A stretch of 63,111 nucleotides of DNA, filler included, from Reclinomonas americana ATCC 50394 (GCA_048213135.1; 5 parts of 2 records of this genome joined end to end with filler, not necessarily neighbours in it); one strand, 5' to 3'; shown: positions 23,822 to 58,655, counted from the first letter of the whole stretch. The notes: generated by a model from the sequence alone, not told the origin. Numbers and translations: made by a program.

Positions 23822-23967
23822 ATGTTGCAACCCAAGCGCCACATTTGGCGGGAGGCGGTTCCCGCGCAGTCGAGCAGCAAGTTGCAGGAGATTGTGCAGC
23901 CGCATTTGGATGCCTTCAATCACTTTGTGCAACGCGGGTTGCCGTTGTTGGCGCAGACGATTCCGGT

Positions 23968-24002
<35 letters not shown>

Positions 24003-24765
24003 AGGAGAGAGAGAGTGTATGTGTGTTTGTGAGAGAGAGAGAGTGAGTGAGTGTGAGAGAGAGAGAGAGTGAGAAAGAGAGAGAGTGTGTGCGTGAGAGA
24101 GAGTGAGAGAGTGAAAGTGAGAGAGTGAGAGAAAGAGTGATTGCATGCATTTTTTTTGTTGGCACGCACCCAAGCACACATACTCGCAGAGAGAGAGAGA
24201 GAGAGAGACTGACTGACACGCTCTCTCACGCACTGAGTGTGTGTGTGTGTGTGATAGGAGAGTGAATGCTTGTGTTTTGCTGCACATTCTCTCTCTTTTG
24301 TGCACAGTGAGAGAGTGCTTGTGAGATGAGAGGGTGAGGGTGAGAGTTAGCAATGCAGTCGGTGACTCTCGTGCGTCACATCACTTGCACGCGCCCCAAC
24401 GTGCTCTCTCTCTCTCTCTCTCTCTCTGAGTTTTCTCATTCACGCATGTCTCTTCCCATTCCGTTCAAGAAGAACACAAAGCATCGCTGGTTGGATGCAG
24501 CCTCGTCTTTCTCACACCCTTCTCCCCCTTCTCTCTCTCTCACTCAGAGCTTTCTCATTCACGCATGTCTCTTGTTCACGCTTTCCCATTCCGTTCATGA
24601 AGAACACAAAGCATCGCTCGAAGGATGCAGCCTCGCCTTGCTCACCCCCCTTTCTCACTTGCTCTCTCTCTCTCTCTCATTCTCGCATTCATGCATTCTC
24701 TTGTTCATGAAGAATGCAAAGCATCGCTCGAAGGATGCAGCCTCTCATTGCTCCCTTTCCCACTT

Positions 24766-24826
<61 letters not shown>

Positions 24827-25029
24827 NNNNNNNNNNNNNNNNNNNNNNNNNNNNNNNNNNNNNNNNNNNNNNNNNNNNNNNNNNNNNNNNNNNNNNNNNN
24901 NNNNNNNNNNNNNNNNNNNNNNNNNNGTACGTACGTACGTTACGTTAACCGTACGTTACGTACGTACGTACGTACGTACGTACGTACTACGTACGTACGA
25001 CGTACGTACGTACGTACGTCGTCGTCGTC

Positions 25030-25126
<97 letters not shown>

Positions 25127-27877
25127 CTCTCAGTTCTCTCATTTTGACGTTCTCTTGTTCACATGCTTTCCCATTTCGTTCATGAAGAATGCAAGCATCG
25201 CTCGAAGGATGCAGCCTTGCCCCCTTTCCCACTTGCTCTCTCTCTTTCAGCTCTCTCACTCACATTCTCTTGTTCACATACTTTCGTCCATGAAGAACGC
25301 AAAGCATCGCTCGTTGGATGCAGCCTCGCCTTTCTCACCCCCTTTCTCACTTGCTCTCTCTCTCTCTCTGAGCTTTCTCATTCATGAAGAACGCAAAGCA
25401 TCGCTCGCTGGATGCAGCCTCGCCTTTCTCTCCCCCTCACCCACTTGCTCTCTCTCTCTCTCTCTCAGTTCTCTCAGTTCTCTTGTTCACACGCTCTCCC
25501 ATTTCGTTCATGCAGAACACGATGTATCGCTCGAAGGATGCAGCCTCTGATTCCCCTCTCCTTTCCCCACGTGCTCTCTTTCCTGTCACGCCTGCACACT
25601 TTCTTCTTTCACATTCCTGCACACTTTCTTCCTCTCTCGTCCTTATCACTTCATCCGTCCCTCTCAATCATCCACTCATTCCCTTCTCCCTTTTTTGCAG
25701 GCCGTGGAGATCGAGGACCCCGACACCAAGGACTACTTTAAAGATATGCCCCTTCTGCTCTCTTACCCTTCCTTTCCCCTCCACCCCCAGTGCCTGAGAA
25801 CGCCTCTTTCTTGTTGTTGTGCTCCCCTCACTGTCGATCCAGTCGATCAACATTGGCAAGCCCACGGAGGATCCGAGTGTGGTGCGTGCACAGCAAAGCG
25901 CACCGCCTTCCCTTCGTGCTCATTCCCCCACAGGTCCGCGGCCGCCACTCCACCTACCGCGGCGACCTGACTGTGACGCTGAGCCGCGTCATGGCCGACG
26001 GCACCAGCCTGCAGTCCACTCATCGACTCGGCATGCTGCCGGTGATGATCAGGGTGCGTGCTGCTGACGACCACACACACCCTCTCTTTACAGTCTTAAC
26101 AACATGACGTTTCCGCAGTCATGCCTCTGCCGTCTGGAGAACAAGACGCCGGCACAGCTGACGCAGCTCCACGAGGACGCCCAGGAGATGGGCGGCTACT
26201 TCCTCTGCAGTGGTGTCGAGCGCTGCATTCGCCTGCTGGTCATTGCGCGGCGAAACTATGTTGCGCCTCTCGAAGTCCTTTTTGCCGGCTCTTTCTCTCT
26301 CATGTACCTGACGTGCGGCGATTGCGTGCGTAGCCCATTGCCATCAATCGACCCTCGTTTGCGGGGCGCGGACCCAAGTTCACCCCCTTTGGTATTCTGG
26401 TGAGTCGCGCTTCCTTTCCTCACTTTCCATTGCCGATCTCAGGCCTCTATCCCCTCTCGTCAGGTCCGCTGCGTGCGTCCCGATTTCAGCTCCTCGACCA
26501 ACGTCGTCCACTACCTCAGCACCGGCGAGGTCCTCCTCTCGCTCACCGTGCTCAAATCGCAGTTCTTCCTGCCCGTCGTTCTCATTCTCAAGGTATTGTG
26601 TCACGAATGATGTCTCCTCTCGTGTAATCTCTTGCCGACCCCTTCTTCCCCTCGTCACAGCTGCTGAAAGAGTCGAGCGACCGCGACATTTACGACCGCA
26701 TCATCCAAGGCGACGTCGAGGACACCTTTGTCGCCCAGCGTGCCGAGGCCGTGTTGCGCGAGTTCCGCGACTCGTACCCGCAGTGCAACTCGCAGGAGTC
26801 GTGCTTGGCCATGATTGGTGCGTTAGTTTGCTTCTGAAGACTTCGAGTCGCTCTCTTCAATCCTGTTGTGGTCCTCTGTACTTTTGTGCTCCTTGAGTGT
26901 ATCTCACTCCTTCCTTGTTACTCGCAGGCGGTCTCTTCCGCGCACGCCTGGACGCCTCGTCGCGTCTCAGCGATGTGGAAGTCGGTCGCATGCTCGTTCG
27001 CGACTTTATTCTCGTGCATCTGGAGAGCCATGCGGACAAGTACAACTTTTTGATGTTGCGCGGAGAAGGGAAGAGAATGATGCAAAAAAAAAAGGCTCGC
27101 CGACTTAACTTTTGTGTCGTGCAGTGTGATTCTGCAAAAGCTGTACCGCCTGGTCAAGGGCGACATCATGGCCGACTCGTCCGACAGTCCGCTCTACCAG
27201 GAGGCGCTGACCGGTGGTCATGTGTACCAGGTGTTGCTGAAGGTTGGTGGGGAGAGGGGGAAGGGGGGGAAGGGAGGGAAAGGGAGAGGGAAAGGGAGGG
27301 GAAGGGAGGGGAAGGGAGCGGGAGAGGGAGGGAGACGGAGAGTGTATTTCTCCCGTTCTCTCCTCGTGCCTTTTGTGTGTTTGCTTCTCGCACTCTCTTT
27401 CTCTCTCTCTCTCTTTCTTATCTGTGTGTCTCTGTTTCCATGTCTGTCTCCCGTTCTCTCCTGGTGCCTTTTTTGTGTTTTTAATTCTCTCTTTTCTCTC
27501 TCANNNNNNNNNNNNNNNNNNNNNNNNNNNNNNNNNNNNNNNNNNNNNNNNNNNNNNNNNNNNNNNNNNNNNNNNNNNNNNNNNNNNNNNNNNNNNNNNN
27601 NNNNNNNNNNNNNNNNNNNNNNNNNNNNNNNNNNNNNNNNNNNNNNNNNNNNNNNNNNNNNNNNNNNNNNNNNNNNNNNNNNNNNNNNNNNNNNNNNNNN
27701 NNNNNNNNNNNNNNNNNNNNNNNNNNNNNNNNNNNNNNNNNNNNNNNNNNNNNNNNNNNNNNNNNNNNNNNNNNNNNNNNNNNNNNNNNNNNNNNNNNNN
27801 NNNNNNNNNNNNNNNNNNNNNNNNNNNNNNNNNNNNNNNNNNNNNNNNNNNNNNNNNNNNNNNNNNNNNNNNNNNNN

Positions 27878-27933
<56 letters not shown>

Positions 27934-28132
27934 ATCTATTTGTCTCTGCCTCTATATCTGTCTCATTCTCTCCCTTTCTCTCTCTCTTTCTCTCTATATC
28001 TGTTTGTCTCTGCCTCTGTATCTGTCTCATTCTCTCTCTATGTGTGTCTGTCTCTGTGCCTGTCTTTTTCTCTCTCTATGCGTGTCTCTCTGTGTCTGTC
28101 TTTTTTTCTCTTTCTCTACATATGTGTCTCTG

Positions 28133-28178
<46 letters not shown>

Positions 28179-31100
28179 GTTGTCTGTCTATCTATATATC
28201 AAGCTCCATCACTCGCTCCCTGTCACTCTCTCTGTTTGAGTCTCTGAGTCAATCTCTCTTCTCCTTGCCTAGAGTCCCTCACATCATCTGGGAGAGAGAG
28301 AAGTCAGAGAAGATATCGAAAACATGAAAGAGAATGAGGAGAGGAAAGAGATGACCTGTTTGGGCAAGTGCGGTGTGATCATATTTTTGTGTACGTGACT
28401 TGCTTCTTTCTATTACTCTTCACCACCGGCCCTCCCCTTCCCTGTGCACTCAAGCACCCTTCTCCCCCATTTTCAGGACAAGCTGACGGACTTCCTCAAC
28501 GGCATGCGCGCTGTCGCGATGAAGGAAATGCGTGCGTCGAGCTACAAATCGCGTGATTTCCTCAGCAGTTGCGTTGACGCATTCTTTCCAGTTTTGAGAG
28601 ATTCGCCCCTTACCCTTCTTCCTCCTCCGCGCAGCCGAGTTCTTCAAGAAGCTGATTGAGAAGAACCCGGTCGATGTCGGTCGCAAAATCGAGTACTTTT
28701 TGAAGACCGGCAACCTGGTCTCCAATCGCATTCTCGGTCTCGGCCAGGTGCATCTCGCGCGGCCAGTGTTGTCACATCGTGTTATCTTGATCTGATTGTG
28801 TGTGTGTGTGTTGATGCACGCAGACGGCCGGCTTTGTGATCATTGCGGAAAAGCTGAATTTCTTCCGCTACATTTCGCACTTTGCGTCGATTCATCGTGG
28901 TCAGGCGTTTACGGAGATGCGTACCACCTCCATCCGCAAGCTGCTGCCAGACGCGTGGGGTTTGTCTGTTCATCACTTGTCACCAGCGATGCTTGATTGA
29001 CTCACTGCGTGTTGTTTGTGATGCACAGGTTTCATGTGCCCGGTGCACACTCCCGACGGTGCGCCTTGCGGTCTGCTCAATCACTTGAGCTCCTCATGCC
29101 AGGTTCGTGCGAGAGAGTCTCCACGAAGTGCCTTCTTTCGCACGCACACTCATGCCTGCTTCGTGGCACAGATTACCAACCGCGAGCGAACCGTTGACGA
29201 AGACGATGCGCTCGTCAGCGTGCTCGTCGGCCTCGGCATGAGCCCCGTGCCTGAGGGCGGTCACCCTCCGCCGCGCACTTTGGCTGTGTTCCTCGACGGG
29301 CGAGTGATTGGCTACACGCCGCCGAACCGCCTCGAGTATCTCACGCAGCGTCTGCGGCACTTCAAAGTCACCGGCACTGAGGATGGAGTTGCGTGTGGTT
29401 TTCACTTGCTGGTGGACCTACCCTTTTCCTTCGTCTTTTGCTGTTTTCTCTCTCGCTTGCTGCGTCTATCTTGCTTGCGGTGTCTCTCTCTTGCTCGCTG
29501 TGTCTCTCTCTTGTCGCCTGTCCTCTCTCTCTCTCTCTCTCTCTCTCTCGTCGTCTCTCTTACTTTGTCGGTCCGTCCGTCGTCTCTCTCGTTCGTCCGT
29601 CCTCCGACCTCTTCTTCGTTCGTCCGTCCGTCCGACTCCTTCTTCGTTCGTCCGTCNNNNNNNNNNNNNNNNNNNNNNNNNNNNNNNNNNNNNNNNNNNN
29701 NNNNNNNNNNNNNNNNNNNNNNNNNNNNNNNNNNNNNNNNNNNNNNNNNNNNNNNNNNNNNNNNNNNNNNNNNNNNNNNNNNNNNNNNNNNNNNNNNNNN
29801 NNNNNNNNNNNNNNNNNNNNNNNNNNNNNNNNNNNNNNNNNNNNNNNNNNNNNNNNNNNNNNNNNNNNNNNNNNNNNNNNNNNNNNNNNNNNNNNNNNNN
29901 NNNNNNNNNNNNNNNNNNNNNNNNNNNNNNNNNNNNNNNNNNNNNNNNNNNNNNNNNNNNNNNNNNNNNNNNNNNNNNNNNNNNNNNNNNNNNNNNNNNN
30001 NNNNNNNNNNNNNNNNNNNNNNNNNNNNNNNNNNNNNNNNNNNNNNNNNNNNNNNNNNNNNNNNNNNNNNNNNNNNNNNNNNNNNNNNNNNNNNNNNNNN
30101 NNNNNNNNNNNNNNNNNNNNNNNNNNNNNNNNNNNNNNNNNNNNNNNNNNNNNNNNNNNNNNNNNNNNNNNNNNNNNNNNNNNNNNNNNNNNGTTCCGTT
30201 TCGTTTCGTCGTTTTCGTTTCCTTCCTTCCGTCCGTTCGTTCGTCGTCGGTCCGTCTACTTCGTCGTTCGTCGGTCGGTCGTCTCTCTTCGTCGTCGTCG
30301 TCGTGTCTCTCTCTCGTCGTCCTCGTCTCTCTCTCTCTCTCTCTCTCTCTCTAGTCGTCTGTCTCTTTATGGTCGCCTGGCTCTCACTTGTCGCCTCGCA
30401 CTCTCTTGTCGCCTCGCACTCTCTTGTCGCCTCGCACTCTCTTGTCGCCTGTCTCTCTCTTGTCGCCTGGCTCTCTCTTGTTGCCTCGCTCTCTGTGGTC
30501 GCCTCGCACTCTCAGGTCGCCTGTCTCTCTCTCATGTTGTCTCTTTTCTGCTTGTTTCTTTCTTCCTCTCCCTTTCTCTTTTTGCCTTTCTCTCCCTCTC
30601 CCCTCTCTCCCTCCCTCCCTCCCTTCCTCGCTCACTGTTGTGCTCTCCCTTCCTCTCTTCCCCTTTCTTCCTCTCACACTGATTCTTCTCTCGCTTGCAG
30701 GTGACACCGACGCTGGAGATTGGCCTTGTCCCTCCAGCGCAGTACGGCCCGTTCCCCGGCCTCTTCCTGTTCTCTCACGTATCGCGCTTCATGCGCCCTG
30801 TCATTCACATGGCGACGGGCAAGACGGAGCTGATTGGCACGCTGGAGAATGTTGAGTGGGAGATGTGGCGGTGGATAGTAATGTGCAACTCACGTTTTTC
30901 CCCTTCTGTGCATGCAGGCGTACCTCGACATTGCTTGTGTCGACGAGGATATCAAGCCGCACGTGACCACCCACCGTGAGGAGAATCCTCTGAACATGCT
31001 GAGGTTTGTGCATCGGCGAAGACTCGCTCGCTTTGTTGTATGATTGACTCTCGTGTGCAGCGTGGTCGCCTGCCTGACGCCGTACTCGTGCCAGAACCAG

Positions 31101-31394
31101 TCGCCGCGTAACATGTTGCGTACCCTCGGTAGAACACTGGAAGGGTCCCGTTCTTCTCTTTCATGAGGTCTCCGCCACGTGCGCTCTGCTCCCCCTTTCG
31201 ATCGCTCTGCTCTCTCCCCCCTATCGCTCTGCTCTCTCCCCCTTCGCTGTGCTCTCTCCCCCTTCGCTGTGCTCTCTCCCATCGCTCTACTCTCTCCCCC
31301 CTTCGCTATCCTTCTCTCTCTCTCTCTCTCTCTCTCTTCGCTCTGCTCTTCTTCCCTTTGCTCTGCTCTTCTTCCCTTCGCTCTGCCTCTCTCT

Positions 31395-31437
<43 letters not shown>

Positions 31438-34400
31438 TCTCCTCTCTCCCCTTTTCGCCCACACAACGATTGCGCCCAGGTACCAATGCCAAATGGGCAA
31501 GCAAACCCTCGGCACCCCGGCGCACAACATCAGTCACCGCACCGACAACAAGCTGTACCGCATCATGAACGCGCAGGTGCCACTGTGCCGCACGGTGGCG
31601 CAGGACGACTACGAGATGGACAACTATCCGCACGGCACCAACGCCTGCGTGGCTGTGATCTCGTACACCGGCTACGATATGGAAGGTGCTGTGTGCATTC
31701 TTTGAAGGCAGTTACTCCCTCTCTGTTAACTTTCTCATTGTCAGAGTGTCGCGTCTGTTTGCCACTCTCTGCTTCCTGTGTGTGCAATTTTCTCGTCTTT
31801 TTGGTTCCTTTCCTCTCTCCTTTGTTCGGTTTTCGCTCTTTCTCTCCCCCTGTCCTCTTTGTCTTCTTTCTTGCATTTCCTTTCTTCTCTCGTCTTATCT
31901 GCCCATTTCTCCTTTGCTCTTCCTCTTTTCCCTTGTCCCCTCCCCTCTGAACCACTTTTCTCTCTCTCTCTCTCCCCCTGGGCTCTCTCTCTCTCTCTCT
32001 CTCACACACACATACATTCCCATTGCAGAGTGTGCTTCTGTCTTATGTCTTTTTGGCCCTTTCTTTCTCATGTGTTTATTCTTCGCTCTTGTCTCTCGCC
32101 GTCTATATTGCGTTTTTCTCTCTCCCCCCTGTCCTCTTTGTCTCCTCTTCTTTCATCCTTGCTTCTCTCTCGTCCTATAACACCTTTTCTCCTTTGCGCT
32201 TCCTCTTTTCTCTTGTCCCCTGTGTACCTCTTTTCTCTCTCTTTCTTTCCCCTTTGCTCTCCCTATCTCTCTCTCTCTCCCTACCCCCTCGTATCTTGTC
32301 CTCTCTGTACTTCCTCTCTCTTTCTCCCCCTTTCTGCTCTCCTCATCTCTTTTCCCTTTCCCTTCTCCCGCTCACTCACTTTCCCTCCTCACAGACGCCA
32401 TGATCATCAACAAATCGAGCTACGAGCGCGGACTGAAGCACGCCGTGGTGTACACCACCGAAATGGTAGACCTGGGCGCCGACCGCTCCAAGGATCCCAC
32501 CTCCGTGCGCTTCTCGAATCTCCTCTCGGACTCGCGCACCTTCCGAGTGCCCAGCAAGAAGAAGAGGCGCAACCGCAGGCGTTCCATGGGTGGTGAGTGG
32601 CCGAGTGTGCCGATGGATGACTTGATGCCTGGATTTGTGCTTATGTGCTTGTCCTCAGATGCCGACGAAGCCCCCGCTGAGGAGGAGGGAGACGACGAGC
32701 TGACGCTGGAGAGCCTGATGGTGACGCCAAAGTTGGATGTCGACGGCCTGCCGTTTCGTTACCGCTTCCACCAAGTCATGCATTCCGTTACCACCCAGCT
32801 ACTCATCGTTTTCATTGCAGTCGCGTGGGAACCACACTCAATCAGGGCGACCCGCTTTACTGCTACCTGGACGAGGTGACGGGCGAGCACAAGGTGGTGA
32901 AGTTCAAGAAGAACGAGCCGTGCCGTGTGCACGACGTGACCGTGTTCAGTTGCGTTGAGGCATCTTTGCAACAGATTGCGTTGTGGTGCTGACTGAACGT
33001 GTGGCATGCACAGCGGGTGACTCGCGTGGCTACTGTGCCAGCATCAAGTTGCGCTTTGACCGCAATCCCGTGATTGGCGACAAGTTCTCCAGTCGTCACG
33101 GACAAAAGGTCAGGCTTCATTCCCAGTGTCGTTGTGCACGCTTCAATATCCATTGACATTTTCTCCTCTCCCTCCCTCCCTCACCAGGGCGTGTTGAGTT
33201 TCCTCTGGCCGCATGAAAACATGCCGTTCAGCGAGAGTGGAATCAGTCCCGACATTATCATCAACCCGCACGCCTTCCCGTCGCGCATGACCATTGGTAT
33301 GCTTGTGGAGAGCTCTGCGGGTAAGGCCGGAGCGTGCCATGGTCTGTTCCAGGATGCGACGCCGTTCAGGTAAAGGAGGGGGAGGCATGAAGGGAGAGAG
33401 AGAGAGAGAGTGAGTGAGTGAGAGAGAGTGCAAGAACTGCACAAGACTGATTACGCGGGAACTCGAAATGACAACTCCTCCACACACATACACAATCTCA
33501 CTCTCACAACAACAGCGCGACAGAGAGCGAGAGAGGGGGTGAGAAGGGAAAGGAGAGGGAGAGGAAAGGGGGAGTGGCTCCGCTGTTCTTGGCGGCAAGC
33601 GAGTGGGGTCGATGTTTCTGAGTGTTGACCTGCACAATCTGTTCCTCTTTACTTGCGTCCATTCTTCCATGTTAATTTCTTGGCTGCGATAGAGTGTGGG
33701 GAACCGACCGCGCCATCCACATGTCGATGTACAGCAAGCTGCACGTTCGCTCTCTTTCTTTTGCACCTATTCTTCCTCCGTTTACTTCTTTGCAGGAAGA
33801 GAGTGAGGGGTTCTGCGTTGTCTGCATTCCGATTGCATGTACTTCTCCTCTATTCCTCCTCCTTTTCCTTTTTTTGCGGCAAATGAGTGAGGGAAGCTGT
33901 GGTGTCTGCATTGATTTGCACCACGCTGCACGCACAATCCTCTTCGTTGCTTTCGTTGCGTCCATTGTTCCATTATTTTTGATTCTTGGCAGCAAGAGAG
34001 TGGGATAGCGCTTTCTGAGTTGTGGTCGAACACTCTGTTCCTCTTCACTTGCATCCCGTCTTCTATCGTTTGCAGTGGTTGAGTTCGATTTGAGGAGTGT
34101 TGTCTGCTTTCTTTGTTCATGCACTCTCTTCCTTTTCCATTTCTTCTCACACCTTCCCTTTGCTCGCTCTCCAGGTTCAACGAGAAGCGCCGCGCGATTG
34201 ACTACTACGGCGAGCAGCTCGTCAAGGCCGGCTTCAATTACTACGGCAACGAGACCATGTACTCGGGCACGCTGGGATGCGAGCTGACCGCGGAGATTTT
34301 CTTCGGAGTGCGTCTCTTCGTCGTCGTCGCTGCCTCTGCCGCACCTGTGTCACTCATCATCGCCACGCTTTCCCCCCTTTCGCAGGTCGTGTACTACCAG

Positions 34401-39800: not shown

Positions 39801-39845
<45 letters not shown>

Positions 39846-39898
39846 GGAGGAGGAGAAGAGAGAGAGAAGGAGAGAGAGAGACTGAGAGAGACTGAGAA

Positions 39899-39929
<31 letters not shown>

Positions 39930-47618: not shown

Positions 47619-50108
47619 CGAGCAGCTGCATGGCTCCGCTGCGTGAGAGGGGGAGAAGGAGAAGAAGAAGAGAGAGAAGCCAAGATAATGAGAAGACTCT
47701 GTGTGTGAGAGAGACGAAGAGAGAGAGACTCAATCATAGACATCTAGAAACAGCTCGACACTCAAGCACGATAATACAAGCTCAGCCTCTCATTTGCTCT
47801 CCTCTTTCCCTCATTTTCTCCCTCTCCCTCCCACAGAAAGCTCTCACGATTATCGATCGCCGGATTTCACTGGCGAACGCCTCGAGTTCCCCTCCAATGG
47901 TATCTGCTGGTGGTATTGGTGTTTTGGGTTGCGTATCTCGGCTCGCTGCCCCTTGCCCGCCGCTCGTCATTGTGCTTACACTGATCGCAGGGCACCAACG
48001 TACTCAACAATTACGCCATGAATTACAATGTCTCGTTCACGGTGGCCACCGTAATTCGGTCGTCGACCCTCGTGATGAATGTGCTGCTGGGATTTGCAGT
48101 TCTCGGCAAGCGGTGAGTCCTCCCATCTATCTCCTCTTTGTCTGGGTATGAGCGTTTTGTTGCCTCGCGCGTGTGAGTCCCTCCTTTCGTCTTCCTTTCT
48201 CGCTTCTACATTGCCTCTCTCCTCTCCAGTTTCGTATGCGGGTCTCTGTCTCTCACATACTGTCTCATTTCTCTCCCTCCTATTCTCTCCCTCTTTGTAC
48301 GATTATAATGGTGTCTTTCTTAGGGTGTCTCTTCATTTCTGCGTTTCTTGTTGCTCTCCCTTTCTCTCACTCTCCCGTTTCCCGGCCTCATTCTCTCTTT
48401 CTCTTTCCGCGTGCCTCCCGTTTCGCGTGTCTCCGTCCCTCTGTATCTCTTTGTCTCCCTTTGCCTCTCTCTCATTCGCCTTCCTCCCTATCCAGCTACT
48501 CGCTGGTCGAATTGGTGGCGGTGGCCGCCGTCACTCTCGGCACGATGCTGGCGAGTCTGGAGGGCCAAAAGGCCCGCGTGCAGGGAGCGCAGGTGACAGA
48601 GGTATGTTCGAGTCAATAATGCTGCTGCTGGCCGCCGAAATGTCCTCAAATTGACCGGCACGCGCAGCACGAAGGCTTCTCGCTGTCGACCGTGTACTTG
48701 ATTGGCGTGGCGATTCTGATGATCGCGACGGCGTTGACGGCGGTGCTGGCGCTGCTGCAGGAGAATTTGTTTGGGCGGTATGAGAAGAGTGTGCAGGAGA
48801 ATTTGTTCTACACGGTGAGCTATAGTGGGGAAGGGAAGGGAGGGAAACGGGTGAAGGGAAAGAGAGGAGGGGGGAAGGGAGGGGGAAGGGAAGGGAAGAG
48901 AGGGGACGAGAGAAGAGGAGTTGATCCATGCATGACAATGCGCAGTGGGGCAGGGAAGAGAGGGAACGAGAGAATTATGGTAGATCCATGCATTACAATG
49001 CACATCTCGTGGGGGAAGCGAACGGAAGGGCGAGAAATTAGGGGTAGAACCATAGTGGGAGAGAGAAAGAGATAAAGGCAGAAGAGACAGGACTGAGGGA
49101 GAGACGGAGATAAGGTGCAAAGGGAACTGCTTTCGCCTCACTCATCAGAACGAAACATAAGAGGGAACATCTCGTGGGGGAAGGGATGGTAGGGACGAAA
49201 GAATAGGAGATCCGTACGCAAAAATGTGCATCTCGTGGTACGAGAGAAGAGGAGCAGATCCATACCCAACGATGAGGGAAGGGAAGGTGGTGACGAGAGA
49301 ATAGGAGATCCGTACACAACAATGTGCATCTCGTGGGACGAGAGAAGAGGAGCAGATCCACACAACGATGAGGGGAAGGGAAGGTGGTGACGAATTGAGA
49401 TTCGCACATATACCATGTGCATCTCGTGGGGGAGGGGAAGGTGAGATACGAGATTATCGCAGCAGACCTGCACATCAATGAGCATCTCGTGGGTGAAGAG
49501 ATGGGAGGGGACGAGAGAATAGGAGTAGATCCATACACAACACTGAGATGTCGCCTTTGCTAATGTTCCTTCCCACGCACAGCACATCATGTCGCTGCCG
49601 CTGTTCATGTTGGTGAGCAGCGATCTGAGCTCGGCCGCCGCTGCGTACTCACGTGGCCCGCGTGTCGAATTCGGCTGGCCCGCGTTGGGTATTCCGGTCA
49701 TCTTCAGTGCGCCGCTCTTGTGGCTCCTGTTGTCGATCAATGCCATGTCACAGTTGCGCATCGTTTACACGACGCCACGGCGTTCCTCTCTCATCCCTTG
49801 TGCTCCGCGCAGGTATGCATGCGTGTACGGAGTCAACCTGTGCACTTGTGAGTCCCACTCCTTTTGAACCCTGCTCTTCACTTTTCTCACATCTCTCTCC
49901 CGCCAACAGCGTACAGCAACTCGCTGTTCACCACTTTCGTGACCACGCTCCGCAAGTTCCTCACCATTGTCGTCAGCGTGTGGTTCTTTGGGGTACGTGG
50001 GCATCAACAGCGCCTCTCTTTCTCTCTCTCTCTCTCAGTCGCTCTCAGTCTTATTTAGTCTCTCTCAGTCTCTTTTAGTCTCCCTCAATCCGTCAATCTC
50101 TCTCTCTA

Positions 50109-50215: not shown

Positions 50216-50242
50216 TTGCTTGTCTGTCTCTCTCTCTCTCTG

Positions 50243-50274
<32 letters not shown>

Positions 50275-50381
50275 CCTCCTCTTCTTCTCTCTCTCTCTCT
50301 CTCTCTGTCCGTCTGTGTCTATCTATCTATCTGTCTGTCTGTCTATCTGTCTGTTTGTCTATCTGTCTGTCTGCCTTTATG

Positions 50382-50413
<32 letters not shown>

Positions 50414-52035: not shown

Positions 52036-54790
52036 CGTGTTTTGCTGCTTTCTCTGCTCTCTGTGTGTATGCGAGTTAGTGAGTGAGTGAGTGAGTGAGT
52101 GAGTGTGAGTGAGTGAGTGAGTGACAGAATGCATGATTGTGGGTGTGATGGAGAGATTGTGCATCTCTCCCTCTATCTGCATGTTCTTATGCGATTCCTT
52201 GTGTGGGAGAGTGAGCGTGTGTGCATGAGTGTGTGTGCGAGACAGTGCGCATGATCCTCATCACTTTTCCTTTTTCCGTCACTCTCTCGCTCTCTCTCAT
52301 TCTTCCTTTCCCTCATCTTGTGTTCCTCACCCTTTCCATCCTTCGTTCCTTCCAGCCCGCTGTCGCCGGCGATGAACCAGGATCCGCCGGTCACCTTTAC
52401 TGTGCGATTCACCACGGAGTTGCCGGTGAGTGCATATGCTGCTGCTTCTGCTGCTTGTGCACATCATGTTTCAGCGTGCATTCGCACTTGCGGTCTTTCT
52501 CTATCTCGCTGAGTTTACCTTCTTCTGCTGCTTCGCCCTTGCCTTCATGTGCTCCTACTGTCATTCTCCGTCGATGTCCGCTGCAACGCCCTCATCTGCA
52601 TTTTTCCTCCCGCTGTCGGAGTGATGCTCGAGTCATCATGACTCCCGGAAGAGAGAGGGGAAGGAGAGGGGAGAGCTCGCTTGCCTTCTTTCTCTTTGCT
52701 TTCAGCTTGTCTTCCATTCCGTTTCTCTTCGTCTGAAGGGAGAGGGAGATGAGAGAGGAGGGAGAGGGGAGAGCTCGCTCGCTTGCCTTCTTTCTCTTTG
52801 CTTTCAGCTTGTCATCTGTCCCTTCTCTTCTGTCTGAAGGGAGAGGAAGAAGGAGAGGGGAGCGCTCGCTCGCTCGCCTTCTTTGTCTTTGCTTTCAGCT
52901 TGTCTTCCATCCCGTTTCTCTTCTGCCAGAAGGGAGAGGGAGGTGAGAGAGGGGGGAGGGGAGAGCTCGCTCGCTTGCCTTCTTTCTCTTTGCTTTTAGC
53001 TTGTCATCCGTCCCTTCTCTTCTGTCAGAACTGAGAGGAGAGAAGGAGAGGGGAGCGCTCGCTCGCTCGCCTTCTTTTTCTTTGCTTTCAACTTGCCTGC
53101 CATCCCTTCTCCCTTTATTCACCTCCCTGCCTCGCCGCAGTCCCGCACCTTCGACATTATGATCATGCGCGACTGGGCGCCGATTGGTGCCAAGCGCTTC
53201 TACAACCTGGTCATCAACAAGGTTTGTAAATCGTTTGCCTCTCCCACGTCCCTTCTCTCGCTCATTACCTATCCGATCGCAGTTCCTCGACGACACTCGA
53301 TTCTACCGTTTCGTCTCCCACATTGCTCGTTGTGTGCTGCCCTCCCTCCTCACCCTCGCGCGCAGGATCGATTGCCGGTTTTGTGGCGCAATTTGGCGTC
53401 AACGGCGACCCCTCCGTCACGCACGCCTGGTTGCGTTCTCCTCGCTCTCCCCTCTTCTCTCCGTGCCTCGCATGCTAATTGTGTGCAGGGAGGACCCGCG
53501 CGCCATCCTGCCCAACGATCCGATCGTGCCGGGTGTGAGCAACATCAACGGCACCATTTGCTTCGGCGCCGAGTACACCAAGGATCAGATGGTGCGTTTG
53601 AGTGCATGTCTGTTGCATTTCCCCTTCAGGCTTATCTCCTTTCGCGCAGGCCGTCAACCGCACGACGGAGTTGTACCTCAATTTTGCCAACAACAGTCGG
53701 CTGGACAAGCATGGTGCGTTTTTTGAGAGAGGATAAGGGGTGTGTGGTGCCAGTTATCTGATGAGTATGGGTGAGCGAGAAAGACAATGTAGAAGGGAGC
53801 GGGAGAGCAAGTTACTGCGGAGTGAGAGAGTCAGGACATGTGTGTGGGAGAAACAATAGAGAAGAAAAGAGGACTTGTGTGTCCGAGTGTTTCTTCCGTG
53901 TATACAGCGGCTGGGCTGAGAATCGATGCGCACAAGGAGGAGAGAGAGAACTAATTGAAGAATAGGAGAGATTGAGAGGGAGAGTGACCGAGCGTTCTGC
54001 TGAATGTAGAAGTGAGATAGCGACTCGTTGAGTGGCGCGACTGTGAGTAAATAGATGAGCGATCCACTGTGCTCGGTGAGTGAGGGAGAAGAGTGAGTGA
54101 AAGGATGAGTTGTGCAGTCAGTGAGCGAATGAGAGATAGAGAGAAAGACAGCGAGAAGGAGTGGGAGATTTTTGAGAATCCTCTACCTTCCCTCCCTTCC
54201 CCCTTCTCCACGCCCACTGTCTCTTTGCACACAGGCTTCACCCCCATCGGTCACGCCGAGTCCGCCGTCGACCTGCAGGCCATCATGGACATTTACACCG
54301 GGTGCGTTTTCATCTCCTTCAACCCCCTCCCCACCCTCCCTCTCTCACCTTTCCCTCACTCCACCGCCAGGTACGGCTGCTGCGAGGAGGAGGGCCCGCA
54401 GTGCCACGGTCCGAGCCAGGAGAAGACACTCGACGAGGGCAACGCCTACCTCAACGCCAACTTCCCCAAGCTGACGCGCATTGTGACTGTGCGCATTGTG
54501 CCGTCGGGCGGTGGCGGGCACAACCACGGCGATGACCAGGTCACTGGTGCTGCGCGTGCGCGATATATGTTGCCTCGTGGACACGCCAAAGTGTGCTGAC
54601 CCCCTCTTCCTCACTATCGATGCAGCCACCAGTGGACGAGACGCGCGGCCTGATCACCATCGTGCTGTTCATCGTGAGCATCATCACCGTGGTCTTCGTG
54701 GTGTGGACCCTGTTGAACTTGTTGCGCAATAGCAGCAACACTAGCAGCAGCAGTGGCGGCGGCAGTGTACGAGGAGCCGAGCGCATTTAA
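51550..54790 (+). CDS. Cyclophilin-type peptidyl-prolyl isomerase with signal peptide and C-terminal transmembrane helix, 10 exons
   Basis: MLSERVVCLVLALLCVTAAVMA signal; WAPIGAKRFYNLV, RFYRSIAGFVAQFGVNGDP, SNINGTICFG, RTTELYLNFANNSRLDKHGFTPIG, EGNAYLNANFPKL; TM GLITIVLFIVSIITVVFVVWTLL; TAA at 54788-54790. Confidence 0.9.
52655..53110. repeat. About five tandem copies of a 90-100 bp unit in cyclophilin intron 2
   Basis: GAG(A/C)GCTCGCTCGCT.GCCTTCTTT...TTTGCTTTCAGCTTGTC-like core near 52671, 52770, 52860, 52961 and 53052. Confidence 0.85.
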
Positions 54791-56138
54791 TGTACCAGTG
54801 GTGCTGTCGGCTGCTGTTGGTCTCCCTGATTGCGGTACAGCAGGAGTGCGAGCAGCGATTCGCGCAGCTCGCGCAGGGTGAGCGCCCGGACAGTGTCGGG
54901 GTCGCTGTTGGCGGCGGGAGGGGAGGGAGGGGGGAGTAGTGCGTCGTCGAGGGGGTCCCTGTGTGTGGGTGAAGGGAGGGGTGGGAAAGGGGGAAGGGAG
55001 AGGGAAAGGGGGGTGAGGGGGGAAGGGGAGAGGGAGGGAGGGGGGAGGGAGAGGGGGAGGAAGAGGGGGACGAGGGAGGTGGGGACGTAACTGGTCGCTG
55101 ACCATGCCGTTGCTGTGGGAGGGGAGAAGGGGAAAGGGTGAGGCAGGCGATGGAGAAGGAGACGGGGGTTGCTAGGAGAGAGCAACAGCAAAGGGAAGGG
55201 GTAATTGGAGAAGGTCATGAGATAGGATGCGGGGAGAGAGCCATAGCATGGGGAGGGGGACACAAGGAGCATGTGACGGGAGAGGGCGAGCGGCGAGAGA
55301 GCCACAGCAGAGGGAGGAGGGCAGAGAGAGCACGTGATGGGGATGGTTGCAGCGAGAGAGCAACAGCTCAGGGACGGGACAGCGAGAGCAGGTGATGAGA
55401 GAGGGTGTGGCGATCAATCAAAAGGAGGGGACAAAGGGAGCAGGTCATGGCGAGAGAGGGGAGCCACAGCAGAAGGAGGAGGACAAAGAGAGCAGGCGAT
55501 GGGAGAGGGCGACCGGCGAGAGAGCAGCAGCACAGGGAGGGAGCACGTGATGGCAGGGATTGCGGGGAGAGAGGGGAGGGAGCAAGTGATGGGAGAAAGT
55601 GGGGAAGAGAGCGACAGCACGGGGATAAAGGGAGAGGTTGCGGTGAGAGAGCAGCGGCATAGGGAGGGAGAGACAGAGAGAGCGCGTGTTGGGAGACAGA
55701 AGAGACCGAAAAACAATCGCAATGGACAACTTGGGCGATCTCCTCGCCTCTCCCTTCCCTGCCCCCCACCCAACGCAACTCCACAACCGACGTCATCGTA
55801 GCATGATCCTCCACAGCCACAGACTTCACAGTCCAAGGCGGCGGCTGCGACGACTGCACAAAAGACAAATCAACACCAATCATGATGACGCGCGCACAGT
55901 CACACGCAACAGCCGCCTGATCATCCTTCGCATCATCACTATCACTATCATCATCATTGCAATCAGTGCTGTTCTTGTTGTTGCTGCTGTCACACGGCGG
56001 AGGAGTCGCGCTGTCACTGTCCTCGTCCGAGTCGGCGGCCTCGTACGGAGGCGCCTCGTATGCCCTTGCCATGTCGATGAGGTGCACGCAGGCGAGGGAC
56101 ACGCACAGTGCGGCGAGGAGAAGCGCGATCACGCGCAT
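54787..56138 (-). CDS. Hypothetical secreted acidic protein, 183 aa, 3 exons
   Basis: Exons 56138-55780, 55112-55092 and 54958-54787 join in frame via A|GTTGCGT..CAG and A|GTTACGT..CAG. Signal-like MRVIALLLAALCVSLACVHL followed by a D/E/S-rich tract. Confidence 0.7.
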
Positions 56139-56289
56139 TTCCGACTCAATGTGGCGCGAAAAGAGACCGAAAAGATGTCGAATACAGCGCGTGTCCTGTT
56201 GAGTGGTGGAGGAGAGTGCGTATACAGCAAAAGCAGGTGAACAGGGAAAGGCAGCGATGCAATGCGAGAGAAAGCGAGAGAAACAGAGT

Positions 56290-56750
56290 GATGAGCGTCG
56301 ACGTCGACGTCGATCAATATGAGGTGTCTGCGACCGGCTTTGCGCTATGGAAGCCGTGACCTGCATAAAACCTCGTGCGTGCAGTGTGATCCGTACGAGC
56401 ACGTTGATCTGTGAGGCGCGCAAAGAGCGAAACATTATATCGACGTCGACGTCGACCAATAAGAGGTCTTTGTGATGGGTTTTACACTGCGTATGCCATG
56501 CACCACATGAAACCGTGTGCGTAGATTGCGCTCCGCACGGGCAGGTTCGTCAGTGAGGCACGCAAGGAACGAAACATTGACACTACGACGTCGACTTCGA
56601 CGTCGACCAACAAGAGGTCTTTGTGACGTGCTCTGCGTTCTGGATGCCGTGCTCTGAATGAAACCGTGTGCGTAGAGTACACTCCGCACGGGCAGGTTCA
56701 TCAGTGAGGCGCGAGTCGCAGAGAACCATGGCCAGGACGTCGACGTCGCA
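56290..56750. repeat. Three to four tandem copies of a roughly 145-150 bp unit in a divergent intergenic region
   Basis: CGACGTCGA..AA..(T/A)GAGG...AAACC...TGCGT...GTGAGGC.CG near 56305, 56447 and 56598, with a partial copy near 56737. Confidence 0.85.
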
Positions 56751-57058
56751 ATCGCTCACCGCCACAGCGAGGCTCCCCGAGCGACATGCAACCATGTGAC
56801 GTGCACTTCCTGCCACATTCACCGTGTACGTGCTTCTGCATCCGCCAACCAACTTTGCTTCTTGCACCTTATCCCGATCCGCAGTGTTCGAATTCCACTC
56901 CCACTGATGCAGCCGCCTCACACGAGGAGCGACGACGGAGCAGGATGCAGTATCCCGCAGGTTGGTGTGAGGTCACTGCCACTCCTTTTCTCCGTCTTTG
57001 CACGCATTACAAGACAAAATGTCCTGCACCTCACTCTCTCCTCCGTCTCCTCACTATC

Positions 57059-58655
57059 ATGGAGACCACCACAGCAGGCGGTGGCGCCGGTAACCACGGC
57101 GACACCCCATTACAACGCGCAGCCGCCGCCATGGCGCACTCTGCCGAGAACGACATTCGCAAGACCGGTTTCCCGTTCTCCACGTCGGCGTCGGCGTTGA
57201 CTGCGCGCGAGGAGCTGGCGCACTTGGAGAGCGTGAAGCTCGGCTTGCGCGTGGACCCAGAGGACATTGAGGAGGACGATGAGGATCACGGGGAGGAGGA
57301 TGGCGATGGGGTTCCGACGGGGATTGATCGGAAAAAGTGGATGGATGCGGAGAGGGGGGCGTTGCAGGCGGCGGAGCTGTCGGTGATTGGGAGTAGGGAT
57401 GAGGAGAGTACGAGTGGGGGGAGTCAGGCGCTGAAGATGCAGTCGTATTTGGTGAACACGGTGCCGATTGTGCCAGGTGAGACAAGGGGAAAGGGATAAA
57501 GGGAAAGGGATAAGGGGAAAGGGGGAGAGGAGAGGCAATGGGAAAGGGAGGGCGCAAGAAGGCGAGAGAAGGAGAGAGGATGCGAGAAGGCGTGCAGAGA
57601 CTTGTACTGTGAAGAGACATGAGTGGACGAGAGAACGAGGAAGACAAAGCAGGGAGAGGGAGCGAGTGGGTGCGAGGCAGAGAATGTGTGAAGGAGCGGG
57701 AAGTCGTTTGGAGGCACGGCAATAGTGCGCGGAACCCGACGGAATGAACAAGGAAAGTCAGAGAGAGTACGGAGGGATGCTGGTCCAGAGTGACAAGCAG
57801 TGAGCACGTGGACGTGAAGTGGGTGGATCGCTCAGCAATGAAGGGTGGGAAGTGGACAAGGTGATCCAGCAAAACAAGCAGACGAAGAGTGACAAGATTG
57901 AGAATGCAACACAGACAATGATGAGAGTGTGCGCCAAAAGAGGAGCACGAGAGGCAGAGAGAGACTCAGTGTGGAGACGGTGAGTGAACGCGGAAATGGC
58001 GACACACAGGCGGAAAAAGAAGCTGAGCGTGGAGAGAGAGCAAGAATCAGCAAGCGCGATAATCGCCAAGAGAAGCCGATAGAGGGCGAGGCGAGAGTGC
58101 AGCATGGGCGATAATAGCAGACAGGCAGCGAGAATGACAAGGAGTTCGAAGAAAGTCGATATGGAGAGGGAGCGAGAGAGCAAGAGCATGGCGAGGGGAA
58201 GGGGAAAATACCGGAGAGGTTGTTCTGGAGCTCACCCTTCTCCCTATTAAGGTGGGCGACGAGTGAAGAAGGCGAAACGAGGCTGCCTGGGTCCCATCGA
58301 TCGCTACTTTCGTGTGTCGGCCACGCGCAGCACGTTTGCCACGGAGATTATTGCAGGAGTGACGGATTTCTTTGTGGTCGCCTGTTGCGTACATATGGGC
58401 AAGGCAAAGCGTGGGTTTTCGTGTTCGGCCTCACTCCCTCCCCGCCACAGATATTATGCAGTACCAGGCGGCGTCAATGGGACCTGTGGGCATGGATTCA
58501 AACTCTGTGGCCACGGCCACGGCGATTGGTGAGTTGGATGAATGACGGCTGTCGGTATTTGTTCGTGTCTTTGACGCTGGGTTTTGCGCAGTGGCCGGCG
58601 TGTTCAACATTATGCTCGGCACCATCGGTAACTTGCCACTCGTGGGTGCACCGAG
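57059..58655 (+). CDS. AzgA/NCS2-family purine (adenine/guanine/hypoxanthine) permease, 5' part only
   Basis: Four exons give IDRYFRVSATRSTFATEIIAGVTDFFVVAYI...GMDSNSVATATAIVAGVFNIMLGTIGNLPLVGAP, matching the AzgA N-terminal motifs TE..AG.T.F...YI and N.P...AP. Truncated by the contig end at 58898. Confidence 0.8.

What the first reader, a model, noticed from the sequence alone, without database searches (positions are those of the whole stretch)
23822..58655. A second, +1-shifted class of 5' splice site used when the exon does not end in G
Seen in sequence: across 95 hand-assigned GT donors in 8 genes there are two classes. Ordinary donors read GTGCGT, GTGAGT, GTACGT or GTTCGT (G at +5). About one third (32/95) carry an extra T after GT and read GTTGCG(T), GTTGAGT, GTTACGT or GTTTCGT (G at +6; one, 47111, is GTTGCAT). 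Examples: RPA2 26260, 27055, 28568, 29388, 30851, 31115, 32753, 32949; ABCA 38322, 38974, 40505, 40840, 40929, 41975, 43184, 44976, 45291; also 19613, 20208, 20561, 49753, 53308, 55779(-), 55091(-), 58384. The class tracks the last exon base: 28/34 donors after A/C/T are shifted versus 4/61 after G (38217, 41438, 47928, 53430). Conserved RPA2 and ABCA motifs fix cleavage before the GT. Established knowledge: shifted or bulged U1 pairing registers are described in human as a minority class (Roca and Krainer 2009; Roca et al. 2012), and donors lacking -1G normally depend more on +5G. Here they mostly lack +5G. Inference: the intron's own +1G substitutes for the missing -1G in U1 pairing, and U6 must tolerate a bulge. 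That implies a lineage-specific two-register spliceosome (variant U1/U6 snRNA or altered U1C, LUC7 or PRP8).
Basis: partly seen in the sequence, partly recalled or inferred. Interest (0 to 1): 0.95.

Follow-up and report, generated by a model that had tools for sequence, protein, structure and literature searches.

The report
Second splice-donor class with extra T
In this intron-rich protist-like genome piece about a third of introns start GTTGCGT instead of GTGCGT, almost only where the preceding exon does not end in G, which points to an unusual, still unseen way of reading splice sites.

Summary
I rebuilt the gene models without using the last exon base. The RPA2 (24 introns) and ABCA (29 introns) models rest on homology and on open reading frames. 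In these two genes, 16 of 19 donors after A/C/T are GTT-N-C/A-G ("shifted"), against 2 of 34 after G (Fisher 8.5e-9). Only 2 of 202 introns in 80 RPA2 loci of other eukaryotes are of this type.

Shifted donors are indifferent to the exon end: 4/31 have G, and the window background is about 20%. Ordinary donors demand G (47/53). Branch point, acceptor and intron length are the same in both classes, so one major-type machinery is likely. A register shift (intron G+1 in the place of exon G-1) fits the alignment, with G at that place in 78/84. However, a standard U1 5' end would bind these sites worse than the same sites without the extra T (26/31), and the core C is nearly invariant (30/31). A changed or second U1-type reader is therefore predicted. 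No genome, snRNA gene or RNA-seq was available, so the mechanism is inference.

The parts
25882..34950 (+). RPA2 (RNA polymerase I second subunit) gene body; 24 introns placed by homology; 8 shifted donors
38083..46300 (+). ABCA-type half transporter (membrane domain plus ATP-binding domain); 29 introns; 10 shifted donors
26260..26266 (+). shifted donor t|GTTGCGC (RPA2)
   Evidence: 20/20 homologue alignments
27055..27061 (+). shifted donor t|GTTGCGC (RPA2)
   Evidence: 20/20
28568..28574 (+). shifted donor a|GTTGCGT (RPA2)
   Evidence: 13/20;
29388..29394 (+). shifted donor a|GTTGCGT (RPA2), 1313-base intron with gap
   Evidence: 15/20
30851..30857 (+). shifted donor t|GTTGAGT (RPA2), the only one with A at the core place
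   Evidence: 20/20
31115..31121 (+). shifted donor t|GTTGCGT (RPA2), splits the conserved [12 protein letters not shown] motif
   Evidence: 20/20; read
32753..32759 (+). shifted donor c|GTTTCGT (RPA2)
   Evidence: 20/20
32949..32955 (+). shifted donor a|GTTGCGT (RPA2)
   Evidence: 8/20 (rival 32980 10/20); chosen; both close the frame
38217..38223 (+). shifted-type donor after G: g|GTTACGT (ABCA)
38322..38328 (+). shifted donor a|GTTGCGT (ABCA)
   Evidence: (8/20)
38974..38980 (+). shifted donor a|GTTTCGT (ABCA)
40505..40511 (+). shifted donor t|GTTGCGT (ABCA)
   Evidence: (12/20 as donor)
40840..40846 (+). shifted donor c|GTTGCGT (ABCA)
40929..40935 (+). shifted donor a|GTTGCGT (ABCA), after a 26-base exon
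41438..41444 (+). shifted-type donor after G: g|GTTGCGT (ABCA)
   Evidence: (4/20)
43184..43190 (+). shifted donor a|GTTGCGT (ABCA, just after Walker A)
   Evidence: 19/20
44976..44982 (+). shifted donor t|GTTGCGT (ABCA)
   Evidence: 13/20, 17/20
45291..45297 (+). shifted donor a|GTTGCGT (ABCA), 823-base intron
   Evidence: 11/20, 13/20
19613..19619 (+). shifted donor a|GTTGCGT (RZ-finger/U-box gene)
   Evidence: (no donor term); Pfam
20208..20214 (+). shifted donor a|GTTGCGC (U-box gene)
20561..20567 (+). shifted donor c|GTTGCGG (U-box gene)
47928..47934 (+). shifted-type donor after G: g|GTTGCGT (UAA-type transporter gene)
   Evidence: only (motif-assisted)
49753..49759 (+). shifted donor a|GTTGCGC (UAA-type transporter gene)
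   Evidence: the run without donor term chose 49747, same frame
53308..53314 (+). shifted donor c|GTTTCGT (gene at 52356-54763)
53430..53436 (+). shifted-type donor after G: g|GTTGCGT (same gene)
58384..58390 (+). shifted donor t|GTTGCGT
55904..55910 (-). shifted donor t|GTTGCGT, minus strand, weak coding support
   Evidence: only
55773..55779 (-). shifted donor a|GTTGCGT, minus strand
55085..55091 (-). shifted donor a|GTTACGT, minus strand
12864..12870 (-). shifted donor a|GTTGCGT in copy C
   Evidence: run without donor term chose 12897
8740..8746 (-). paralogue of 14027 in copy B: t|GTTACGT
7544..7550 (-). paralogue of 12870 in copy B: a|GTTGCGT
3538..3544 (-). paralogue of 14027 in copy A: t|GTTACGT
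2364..2370 (-). paralogue of 12870 in copy A: a|GTTGCGT
   Evidence: not needed for an open frame; 51 closing models use it
   Evidence: picked with flank scores -1 and 5 bits

Best explanation
This is a real second class of GT-AG donor, N|GUU(G/A/U)CGU. It is used where the exon cannot offer a G at its last base, and it is removed by the same major-type spliceosome as the ordinary introns.

How it most likely works. The snRNA that first reads the donor is a U1-type 5' end. It recognises one pattern, G-x-U-G-C-G-U. In ordinary donors the first G is the last exon base and x is the intron's G+1. In shifted donors the whole pattern lies one base further in, so the first G is the intron's own G+1 and x is U+2. 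The cut is not set by this helix. It is set afterwards at the GU by U6, U5 and Prp8.

A standard U1 end gains nothing from the extra U. The lineage should therefore carry a changed reader. That would be a U1, either the only one or an extra variant copy, with a base opposite position x that pairs with or tolerates U, and probably a G opposite the near-invariant core C.

Shown: the two classes, the position of the cut, the link to the -1 base, and the common 3' signals.
Inferred: the register, the snRNA involved, and its changed sequence.
For: - Association: 27/33 shifted after non-G against 4/51 after G, p=3e-12. In the homology- and frame-validated genes alone: 16/19 against 2/34, p=8.5e-9.
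- Register-free alignment puts a G two bases before the U-N-M-G-U core in 78/84, against 51/84 with -1G.
- Shifted donors carry G at -1 in 4/31. G precedes 20% of all GT in the window, and 15% of the other GTT-type motif matches. Ordinary donors carry G at -1 in 47/53. So the exon end matters only for the ordinary class.
- A at -1 in 14/31 shifted donors. In a +1 register this base would face the U that normally faces -2.
- The intron side of the shifted class is almost fixed: +4G 26/31, +5C 30/31, +7T 26/31.
- Same machinery at the 3' end: median intron length 66 against 68; a branch-point-like motif in 24/25 against 42/47, at median distance 17 against 18; the same C-G-C-A-G acceptor.
- A hypothetical U1 end with A at position 8 and G, C at positions 5 and 6 pairs G+1 with C9 in 31/31 shifted donors. 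The mean is -10.78 kcal/mol, and the extra U is then favourable in 31/31.
- Diverged paralogous introns keep GTT-N-CGT while the rest of the intron has changed.
- Control: 2 of 202 GT introns in 80 RPA2 loci of other eukaryotes are of this type.
- In human, U1 registers shifted by one base exist, and the cut can be set elsewhere by U6 (Tan et al. 2016, PMC4856993, passages seen).
Against: - No snRNA gene, no transcript and no second window of this genome could be examined.
- With the standard U1 end the shifted register is not predicted. The partner of G+1 is C9 in 7/31, C8 in 4/31 and nothing in 11/31. Removing the extra U stabilises 26/31.
- With a single U1 that keeps C at position 8, even with G and C at positions 5 and 6, the extra U is still unfavourable in 25/31.
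- The A-at-8 variant weakens the ordinary class to -4.89 kcal/mol. One snRNA therefore cannot be best for both classes, and the model needs either two U1 species or help from proteins.
- In the ordinary class -2A is only 13/47, so pairing of the exon side with U1 looks weak here.
- The energies use unmodified U and ignore proteins.
- Twenty-nine of the 31 further-gene donors come from a model that rewards both donor motifs; the other two (12870 and 7550, minus strand) were placed by paralogy.
Confidence: 0.5

Rival explanations
1. A determinant other than U1. The extra U at +3 is wanted by a later or different reader when -1 is not G. Candidates are a changed U6 ACAGAGA box, U5 loop 1 or Prp8 contacts, or a U1C/LUC7-type protein. 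U1 pairing would then play a small part in the choice.
For: - No U1 end that keeps C at position 8 makes the extra U favourable.
- The near-invariant C (30/31 against 20/48) is not explained by the standard U1, which has a pseudouridine opposite it (as drawn in Tan et al. 2016).
- Classes of donors that lean on the exon side or on the intron side are set apart by LUC7 proteins in animals and plants (PMC11842720, abstract and passages).
Against: - No known protein or U6 contact reads an inserted base at +3.
- The G two bases upstream of the core in 78/84 is most simply a base-pairing register.
- Nothing in the window bears on U6, U5 or the proteins.
Confidence: 0.2
2. A bulged-U register on a standard U1. 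G+1 and U+2 pair as usual with C8 and A7, one of the two U's bulges out, and GCGU pairs as positions +3 to +6 normally do.
For: - Single-base bulges at +2/+3 are an accepted register in human. There are 68 predicted sites, 54 after curation, among 201,541 donors (Tan et al. 2016, Table 3).
- This register keeps the two pairs next to the cut.
Against: - A bulge costs energy, so such sites should need -1G more, not less. They have G at -1 in only 4/31.
- Duplex prediction pairs G+1 with C8 in only 4/31, and the sites are more stable without the extra U in 26/31.
- It does not explain the invariant C.
Confidence: 0.1
3. A by-product of how the introns arose or mutate, with no role in recognition. 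Examples are insertion of an element that brings GTTGCGT, or T duplication.
For: Transposon-borne introns with fixed ends are known in other protists and algae. This is recalled; only the Micromonas paper PMC3879977 was seen, as one passage.
Against: - The 72 introns share no sequence. There were 4 non-self hits, all involving the long intron 29388-30700, which contains an assembly gap.
- Downstream exons do not start with a fixed target-site copy (exon positions e1-e3).
- Paralogues keep the motif while the rest of the intron diverges.
- The link to -1 and the fixed core indicate selection.
Confidence: 0.07
4. An artefact: wrong exon borders, or an assembly error that adds a T.
For: There is no RNA evidence. 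The assembly has 16 gaps. The membrane half of ABCA and the smaller genes rest partly on motif-assisted models.
Against: - Borders in RPA2 come from 20 homologues with no donor model.
- The frames close over 1090 and 853 codons.
- An error in a two-base run would not follow the preceding exon base, and would not recur in three diverged paralogues.
- Shifting both borders by one base would give TT...GN introns.
Confidence: 0.03

Closest known systems
+1 shifted-register 5' splice sites of human (Roca and Krainer 2009; seen only through Tan et al. 2016, PMC4856993; the 2009 paper is not held)
   Same: A normal /GU cut with the consensus displaced one base into the intron. The U1 helix and the cut site are uncoupled.
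   Different: In human this is a rare class. All validated non-canonical registers together make up 1.5% of 201,541 donors. Here it is 31 of 84 donors. It is tied to the -1 base, has its own near-fixed core (C 30/31), and is not favoured by the standard U1 end.
Bulged-nucleotide registers (Roca et al. 2012; Tan et al. 2016)
   Same: There is one extra base at +2/+3 relative to the consensus.
   Different: Bulged sites should lean on flanking pairs such as -1G. These sites do not (4/31).
Left-handed and right-handed 5' splice sites set apart by LUC7 proteins (PMC11842720)
   Same: There are two donor classes. One leans on the exon side: ordinary donors have -1G in 47/53 and a loose intron side. 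The other leans on the intron side: shifted donors have a fixed intron side and a free exon end.
   Different: The LUC7 classes share one register. Here the intron-side class carries an inserted base.
AG|GTGCGT(G) donor consensus of Mamiellophyceae (PMC2483917, PMC3879977; passages)
   Same: The same unusual GCG core and a CTGAC-like branch point.
   Different: No T-inserted class is described in the passages seen. Those genomes are intron-poor. The RPA2 tree does not place the window near any sampled group.
U12-type (minor) introns
   Same: A second donor dialect within one genome.
   Different: The donor is not of the RTATCCTT type (recalled consensus). The 3' signals and lengths are the same as in ordinary introns.

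Membership tests
+1 shifted-register 5' splice sites | Cleavage at a normal /GU | tested here: met
   Homology-only alignments and frame closure put the cut before GT. There is no RNA evidence.
+1 shifted-register 5' splice sites | The helix with the U1 5' end is more stable one base displaced than in the canonical register | tested here: not met
   Tested with the standard U1 end: mean -1.77 kcal/mol, G+1 pairs C9 in 7/31, and the sites are more stable without the extra U in 26/31. The organism's own U1 is unknown.
+1 shifted-register 5' splice sites | Rescue by suppressor U1 only in the shifted register | not testable with these tools
   This is a bench test.
Bulge +2/+3 register | One U is bulged between canonical pairs at +1/+2 and at the +5/+6 equivalents | tested here: inconclusive
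   The geometry is possible, but G+1 pairs C8 in 4/31 and -1G is at background level (4/31).
U12-type introns | A distinct donor and a distinct branch site close to the 3' end | tested here: not met
   Branch-like motif, its distance, the acceptor and intron length are the same in both classes.
Introner or transposon-derived introns | Introns share sequence with each other | tested here: not met
   There were 4 non-self hits among 72 introns, all involving the long intron 29388-30700.
Right-handed (intron-side) 5' splice sites in the LUC7 sense | A stronger consensus on the intron side than on the exon side | tested here: met
   +4G 26/31, +5C 30/31, +7T 26/31; the -1 base is free.
Right-handed (intron-side) 5' splice sites in the LUC7 sense | Dependence on a LUC7L2-type protein | not testable with these tools
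   No genome is held, and this is a bench test.

The most novel reading that the evidence does not exclude
The lineage runs two donor dialects through one major spliceosome, using two U1-type snRNAs or one U1 with a rewritten 5' end. One reader handles G|GUGMGU with help from the exon. The other is fully complementary to GUUGCGU and lies entirely inside the intron. About a third of all introns would depend on the second reader. The cut site would then be uncoupled from the U1 register genome-wide rather than in rare exceptions.
Probability: 0.3. Interest if true: 0.85.

Novelty: new variant of a known kind. Interest (0 to 1): 0.7.

Why it matters
In model organisms a displaced U1 register is a curiosity of a few dozen to a few thousand sites. 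That makes it hard to study how the cut site is fixed independently of U1. A genome in which roughly one intron in three uses a one-base-displaced donor, switched by a single exon base, would be a natural experiment. It predicts a specific, checkable change in U1 at positions 5, 6 and 8, or a second U1. It gives hundreds to thousands of matched sites for testing how U6, U5 and Prp8 place the cut. It also matters in practice: gene finders trained on a single donor matrix would mis-score about a third of the donors in this lineage.

Tried and rejected
- Whole genome: none is held, so there could be no genome-wide logos and no snRNA search.
- Rfam on the window: 0 matches at gathering scores. There were 61 weak matches at E<=1, all below gathering. 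Most lie on three short stretches (about 5.0, 16.5 and 25.0 kb). None is a spliceosomal snRNA.
- Earlier findings of this scan: nothing for this genome, for the search words, or for look-alike stretches.
- Relatives:
  - The best protein match to the most conserved RPA2 exon is 76% identical.
  - The best of 80 metagenome loci is 74%. None shows the pattern. Many 'introns' called there are probably alignment gaps, so this is a rough control.
  - The quick RPA2 tree (the careful search did not finish) puts the window on a long branch outside opisthokonts, with at most 52% identity.
  - The Sortilin-like exon finds 62 weak matches at 34% identity or less; the few that carry an organism name are bacterial.
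  - The lineage stays unresolved.
- Ab initio gene finders of my own:
  - The first version over-predicted.
  - Self-training picked up antisense shadow exons, so it was used only for a few high-scoring minus-strand introns.
  - The motif-assisted run wrongly chose 39244. Homology corrected this to 39266.
- Pairing between the intron's 5' and 3' ends, suggested by GUGCGU and GCGCAG, was rejected: 305 of 500 partner shuffles reach the observed helix length.
- The introner origin was rejected.
- The diplonemid lead was rejected: their donor is (G)/GTATG (PMC12621601, section 5 read).
- Literature:
  - Searches for 'shifted register' + 'splice site' + 'U1 snRNA', 'GTGCGT' + 'splice site' + 'intron', 'GTTGCGT' (of 2,708 papers only the 15 listed were looked at, and those gave no splice-site context), and U1/two classes/protist found no description of a T-inserted donor class in any lineage.
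  - Roca and Krainer 2009 and Roca et al. 2012 are not held. What I say of them comes from Tan et al. 2016 and from recall.
  - Supplements were not opened.

Full report
WHAT THE WINDOW IS. The window is an intron-rich eukaryotic stretch with 16 assembly gaps. Most introns are about 65 bases long, and a few are long. No whole genome is held for it, and no sequencing run was listed. It holds no Rfam family at gathering scores. At E<=1 it holds no spliceosomal snRNA (61 weak hits, all below gathering, most on three short stretches at about 5.0, 16.5 and 25.0 kb).

Pfam on 104 open frames and homologue searches give these genes:
- three tandem copies of a Sortilin/BNR-like gene on the minus strand (1-15,300);
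- an RZ-finger/U-box gene (about 19,000-20,600, plus strand);
- RPA2 (about 23,900-34,950, plus strand);
- an ABCA-type half transporter (38,083-46,300, plus strand);
- a UAA-type transporter (about 47,800-50,750, plus strand);
- a further plus-strand gene at 52,356-54,763;
- a weak minus-strand gene near 55,000-56,200;
- a NACHT gene (about 59,000-60,100, plus strand).

The lineage is unresolved. The best match to the most conserved RPA2 exon is 76% identical. In a quick tree RPA2 sits on a long branch outside opisthokonts, with at most 52% identity.

CHECKING THE OBSERVATION WITHOUT USING THE DONOR MOTIF. I wrote a protein-to-genome spliced aligner. It requires only GT or GC at the start of an intron and AG at the end, and it scores with BLOSUM62.

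RPA2. With 20 full-length RPA2 homologues:
- the shifted donors 26260, 27055, 30851, 31115 and 32753 were chosen in 20 of 20 alignments;
- 29388 was chosen in 15 and 28568 in 13;
- 32949 was chosen in 8, and a rival at 32980 in 10.

Donor 31115 splits the conserved [12 protein letters not shown] motif. With 24 introns the RPA2 frame is open for 1090 codons.

ABCA. The ATP-binding half is well supported by homology alone: 43184 in 19/20, 44976 in 13/20 and 45291 in 11/20. The membrane half is noisy by homology. After adding acceptor scores and an equal bonus for both donor types, a chain of 29 introns gives one open frame of 853 codons. That frame runs through Walker A, the signature motif and Walker B to a stop codon.

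Ab initio check. A model with a bare GT as donor (codon model trained on RPA2) recovered 22 of the 24 RPA2 introns. On its own it also picked 19613, 20208, 20561, 38217, 38974, 40840, 40929, 44976, 45291, 53308, 53430 and 58384. On the minus strand it picked 55779, 55091, 14027, 8746, 3544 and 2370.

COUNTS. The class rule was: shifted = GTT, G at +6 and no G at +5.

| Set | Shifted after A/C/T | Shifted after G | Fisher p |
|---|---|---|---|
| RPA2 | 8 of 9 | 0 of 15 | 1.2e-5 |
| ABCA | 8 of 10 | 2 of 19 | 3.9e-4 |
| RPA2 + ABCA | 16 of 19 | 2 of 34 | 8.5e-9 |
| Further genes | 11 of 14 | 2 of 17 | 2.6e-4 |
| All 84 donors | 27 of 33 | 4 of 51 | 3e-12 |

The further genes were modelled with the motif-assisted finder, which does not see the -1 base. 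Only one of the three Sortilin-like copies was counted.

- 41975 is not needed, because a single intron 41587-42039 closes the frame. It is not excluded either, because 51 two-intron models that use it also close the frame.
- 47111 has almost no coding support on either side.

As an outside control, I ran the same aligner on 80 RPA2 loci of other eukaryotes from metagenomes. It gives 2 shifted-type donors among 202 GT introns of at least 40 bases, and 1 among 106 after a non-G. Many of those called introns are probably alignment gaps, so the control is rough.

WHAT THE PATTERN REALLY IS.

1. The shifted class does not avoid G at -1; it ignores the exon end. It has G in 4 of 31. G precedes 20% of all GT in the window, and 15% of the other GTT-type motif matches. 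The ordinary class is the one that demands G, in 47 of 53.

2. The shifted class is not simply the ordinary class with a T slipped in. Its core is almost fixed: +4G 26/31, +5C 30/31 and +7T 26/31. Ordinary donors take A (21) or C (23) at the matching place. C at the core place is 30/31 against 20/48, p=1.9e-7.

3. If donors are aligned on the U-N-M-G-U core rather than on the cut, a G lies two bases upstream in 78 of 84.

4. The 3' side is the same in both classes:
   - median intron length is 66 against 68;
   - a CTNAY-like branch motif occurs in 24/25 against 42/47, at median distance 17 against 18;
   - the C-G-C-A-G acceptor is the same.

   The intron ends do not pair with each other beyond what the consensus gives: 305 of 500 shuffles reach the observed value. 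This argues against a separate, minor-type system.

IS THE EXTRA T REAL AND SELECTED? It lies inside the intron, so frame closure says nothing about it. Three observations bear on it:
- The three Sortilin-like paralogues keep GTT-N-CGT at two intron positions while the rest of the intron has diverged. One has GTTGCGT where two have GTTACGT.
- A read error in a two-base run would not follow the preceding exon base.
- The 72 plus-strand introns share no sequence with each other. There were 4 non-self hits, all involving the long intron 29388-30700, which contains an assembly gap. An origin from one inserted element is therefore unlikely.

MECHANISM. The register-free alignment fits this (78/84). 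So does the exon-independence of the shifted class. A at -1 in 14/31 also fits: in a +1 register that base would face the U that normally faces -2.

I then estimated duplex energies with the standard U1 5' end, as printed in Tan et al. 2016. Results:
- ordinary donors with -1G average -7.41 kcal/mol (n=47);
- ordinary donors without -1G average -3.32 (n=6);
- shifted donors average only -1.77 (n=31);
- G+1 pairs with C9 in 7 of the 31 shifted donors, with C8 in 4 and with nothing in 11;
- taking the extra U out makes the predicted helix stronger in 26 of 31 and never weaker.

A U1 with G and C at positions 5 and 6 would match the GCG core and lifts all classes. The extra U is still unfavourable in 25/31.

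Only a U1 with A instead of C at position 8 makes the extra U favourable, in 31/31. The mean is then -10.78 kcal/mol and G+1 pairs with C9 in 31/31. That U1 weakens the ordinary class to -4.89.

These are rough numbers: they use unmodified U and ignore proteins. The direction is nevertheless clear. On an ordinary U1 the extra T is a cost, so its strong enrichment after non-G exon ends calls for a changed reader. Three candidates remain:
- a rewritten U1 end with help from proteins;
- a second U1 variant that is fully complementary to GUUGCGU;
- a different component (U6, U5/Prp8, U1C or LUC7).

A bulged-U register on a standard U1 fits worst, because a bulged site should need -1G more, not less. 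My preferred reading is the register shift read by a lineage-specific U1-type end (0.5). A non-U1 determinant is second (0.2).

COMPARISON WITH WHAT IS KNOWN.
- In human, a register shifted by one base and registers with single bulges are established. All validated non-canonical registers together cover 1.5% of 201,541 donors. The +2/+3 bulge class has 68 predicted sites, 54 after curation (Tan et al. 2016, passages and Table 3). The same paper notes that the cut can be set by U6 away from the U1 helix.
- The original papers, Roca and Krainer 2009 and Roca et al. 2012, are not held.
- LUC7 proteins separate donors that lean on the exon side from those that lean on the intron side (PMC11842720, abstract and passages). 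The two classes here have that flavour, but with an inserted base.
- A GTGCGT(G) consensus with a CTGAC branch point is known in Mamiellophyceae (PMC2483917 and PMC3879977, passages). No T-inserted class appears in the passages I saw.
- Diplonemids use (G)/GTATG (PMC12621601, section 5).
- My four text searches found no description of such a class. This covers open-access text only. Supplements were not opened.

VERDICT. It is a new variant of a known kind: a shifted-register-like donor promoted from a rarity to about a third of all donors, and switched by the last exon base. The mechanism is inference and makes a sharp prediction about the U1 5' end. The main limits are that only one window was examined, no transcripts were available, no snRNA genes could be seen, and the lineage is unknown.

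Noticed in passing
window 1-15300, minus strand: Three tandem copies, about 5.2 kb apart, of a long-exon gene with Sortilin-Vps10/BNR repeats. 62 homologues were found, all at 34% identity or less over part of the length; the few that carry an organism name are bacterial, and many are labelled 'photosystem II stability/assembly factor-like'. This may be a lineage-specific expansion or an old gene transfer.
   Followed up: partly
window 27243-28476, 29388-30700, 39266-40284, 42178-43011, 43295-44057, 45291-46113: A minority of introns are 0.8-1.3 kb long. Those I read are filled with CT or GA microsatellites, and three of them hold assembly gaps. Two of them share a 39-base stretch at 97% identity. 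Intron length is thus bimodal: about 65 bases, or long and repetitive.
   Followed up: partly
all acceptors, e.g. 28634, 44817, 44928, 53365: The acceptor consensus reaches back to C at -5, G at -4 and C at -3 before AG, often GCGCAG. It resembles the reverse complement of the donor core. A test for pairing between the two ends was negative.
   Followed up: yes
window 32505-32750, plus strand: RPA2 carries a lineage-specific basic and then acidic insert (about 50 residues, split by the intron 32593-32658). No homologue aligns to it, and the homology-only aligner tried to skip it as an intron.
   Followed up: partly
window 19119-19723, plus strand: An RZ-type zinc finger (weak Pfam hit) appears to be split over three small exons. 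It lies upstream of a U-box domain in the same gene. The RZ consensus I compared it with is recalled, not tested.
   Followed up: no
window 59043-60086, plus strand: A long open frame with a NACHT NTPase domain (E 4e-11). Its exon structure was not resolved.
   Followed up: no
window 16450-16670, 24946-25027 and 4978-5117: These stretches draw dozens of weak microRNA-family matches on both strands at E<=1. All are far below gathering scores, and I take them to be chance.
   Followed up: yes
window 61554, 62022 (plus strand); 62733, 62399, 62275, 21295 (minus strand): Further GTTGCG(T) motifs after non-G bases, in regions where I built no reliable gene model. They may be more shifted donors.
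   Followed up: no
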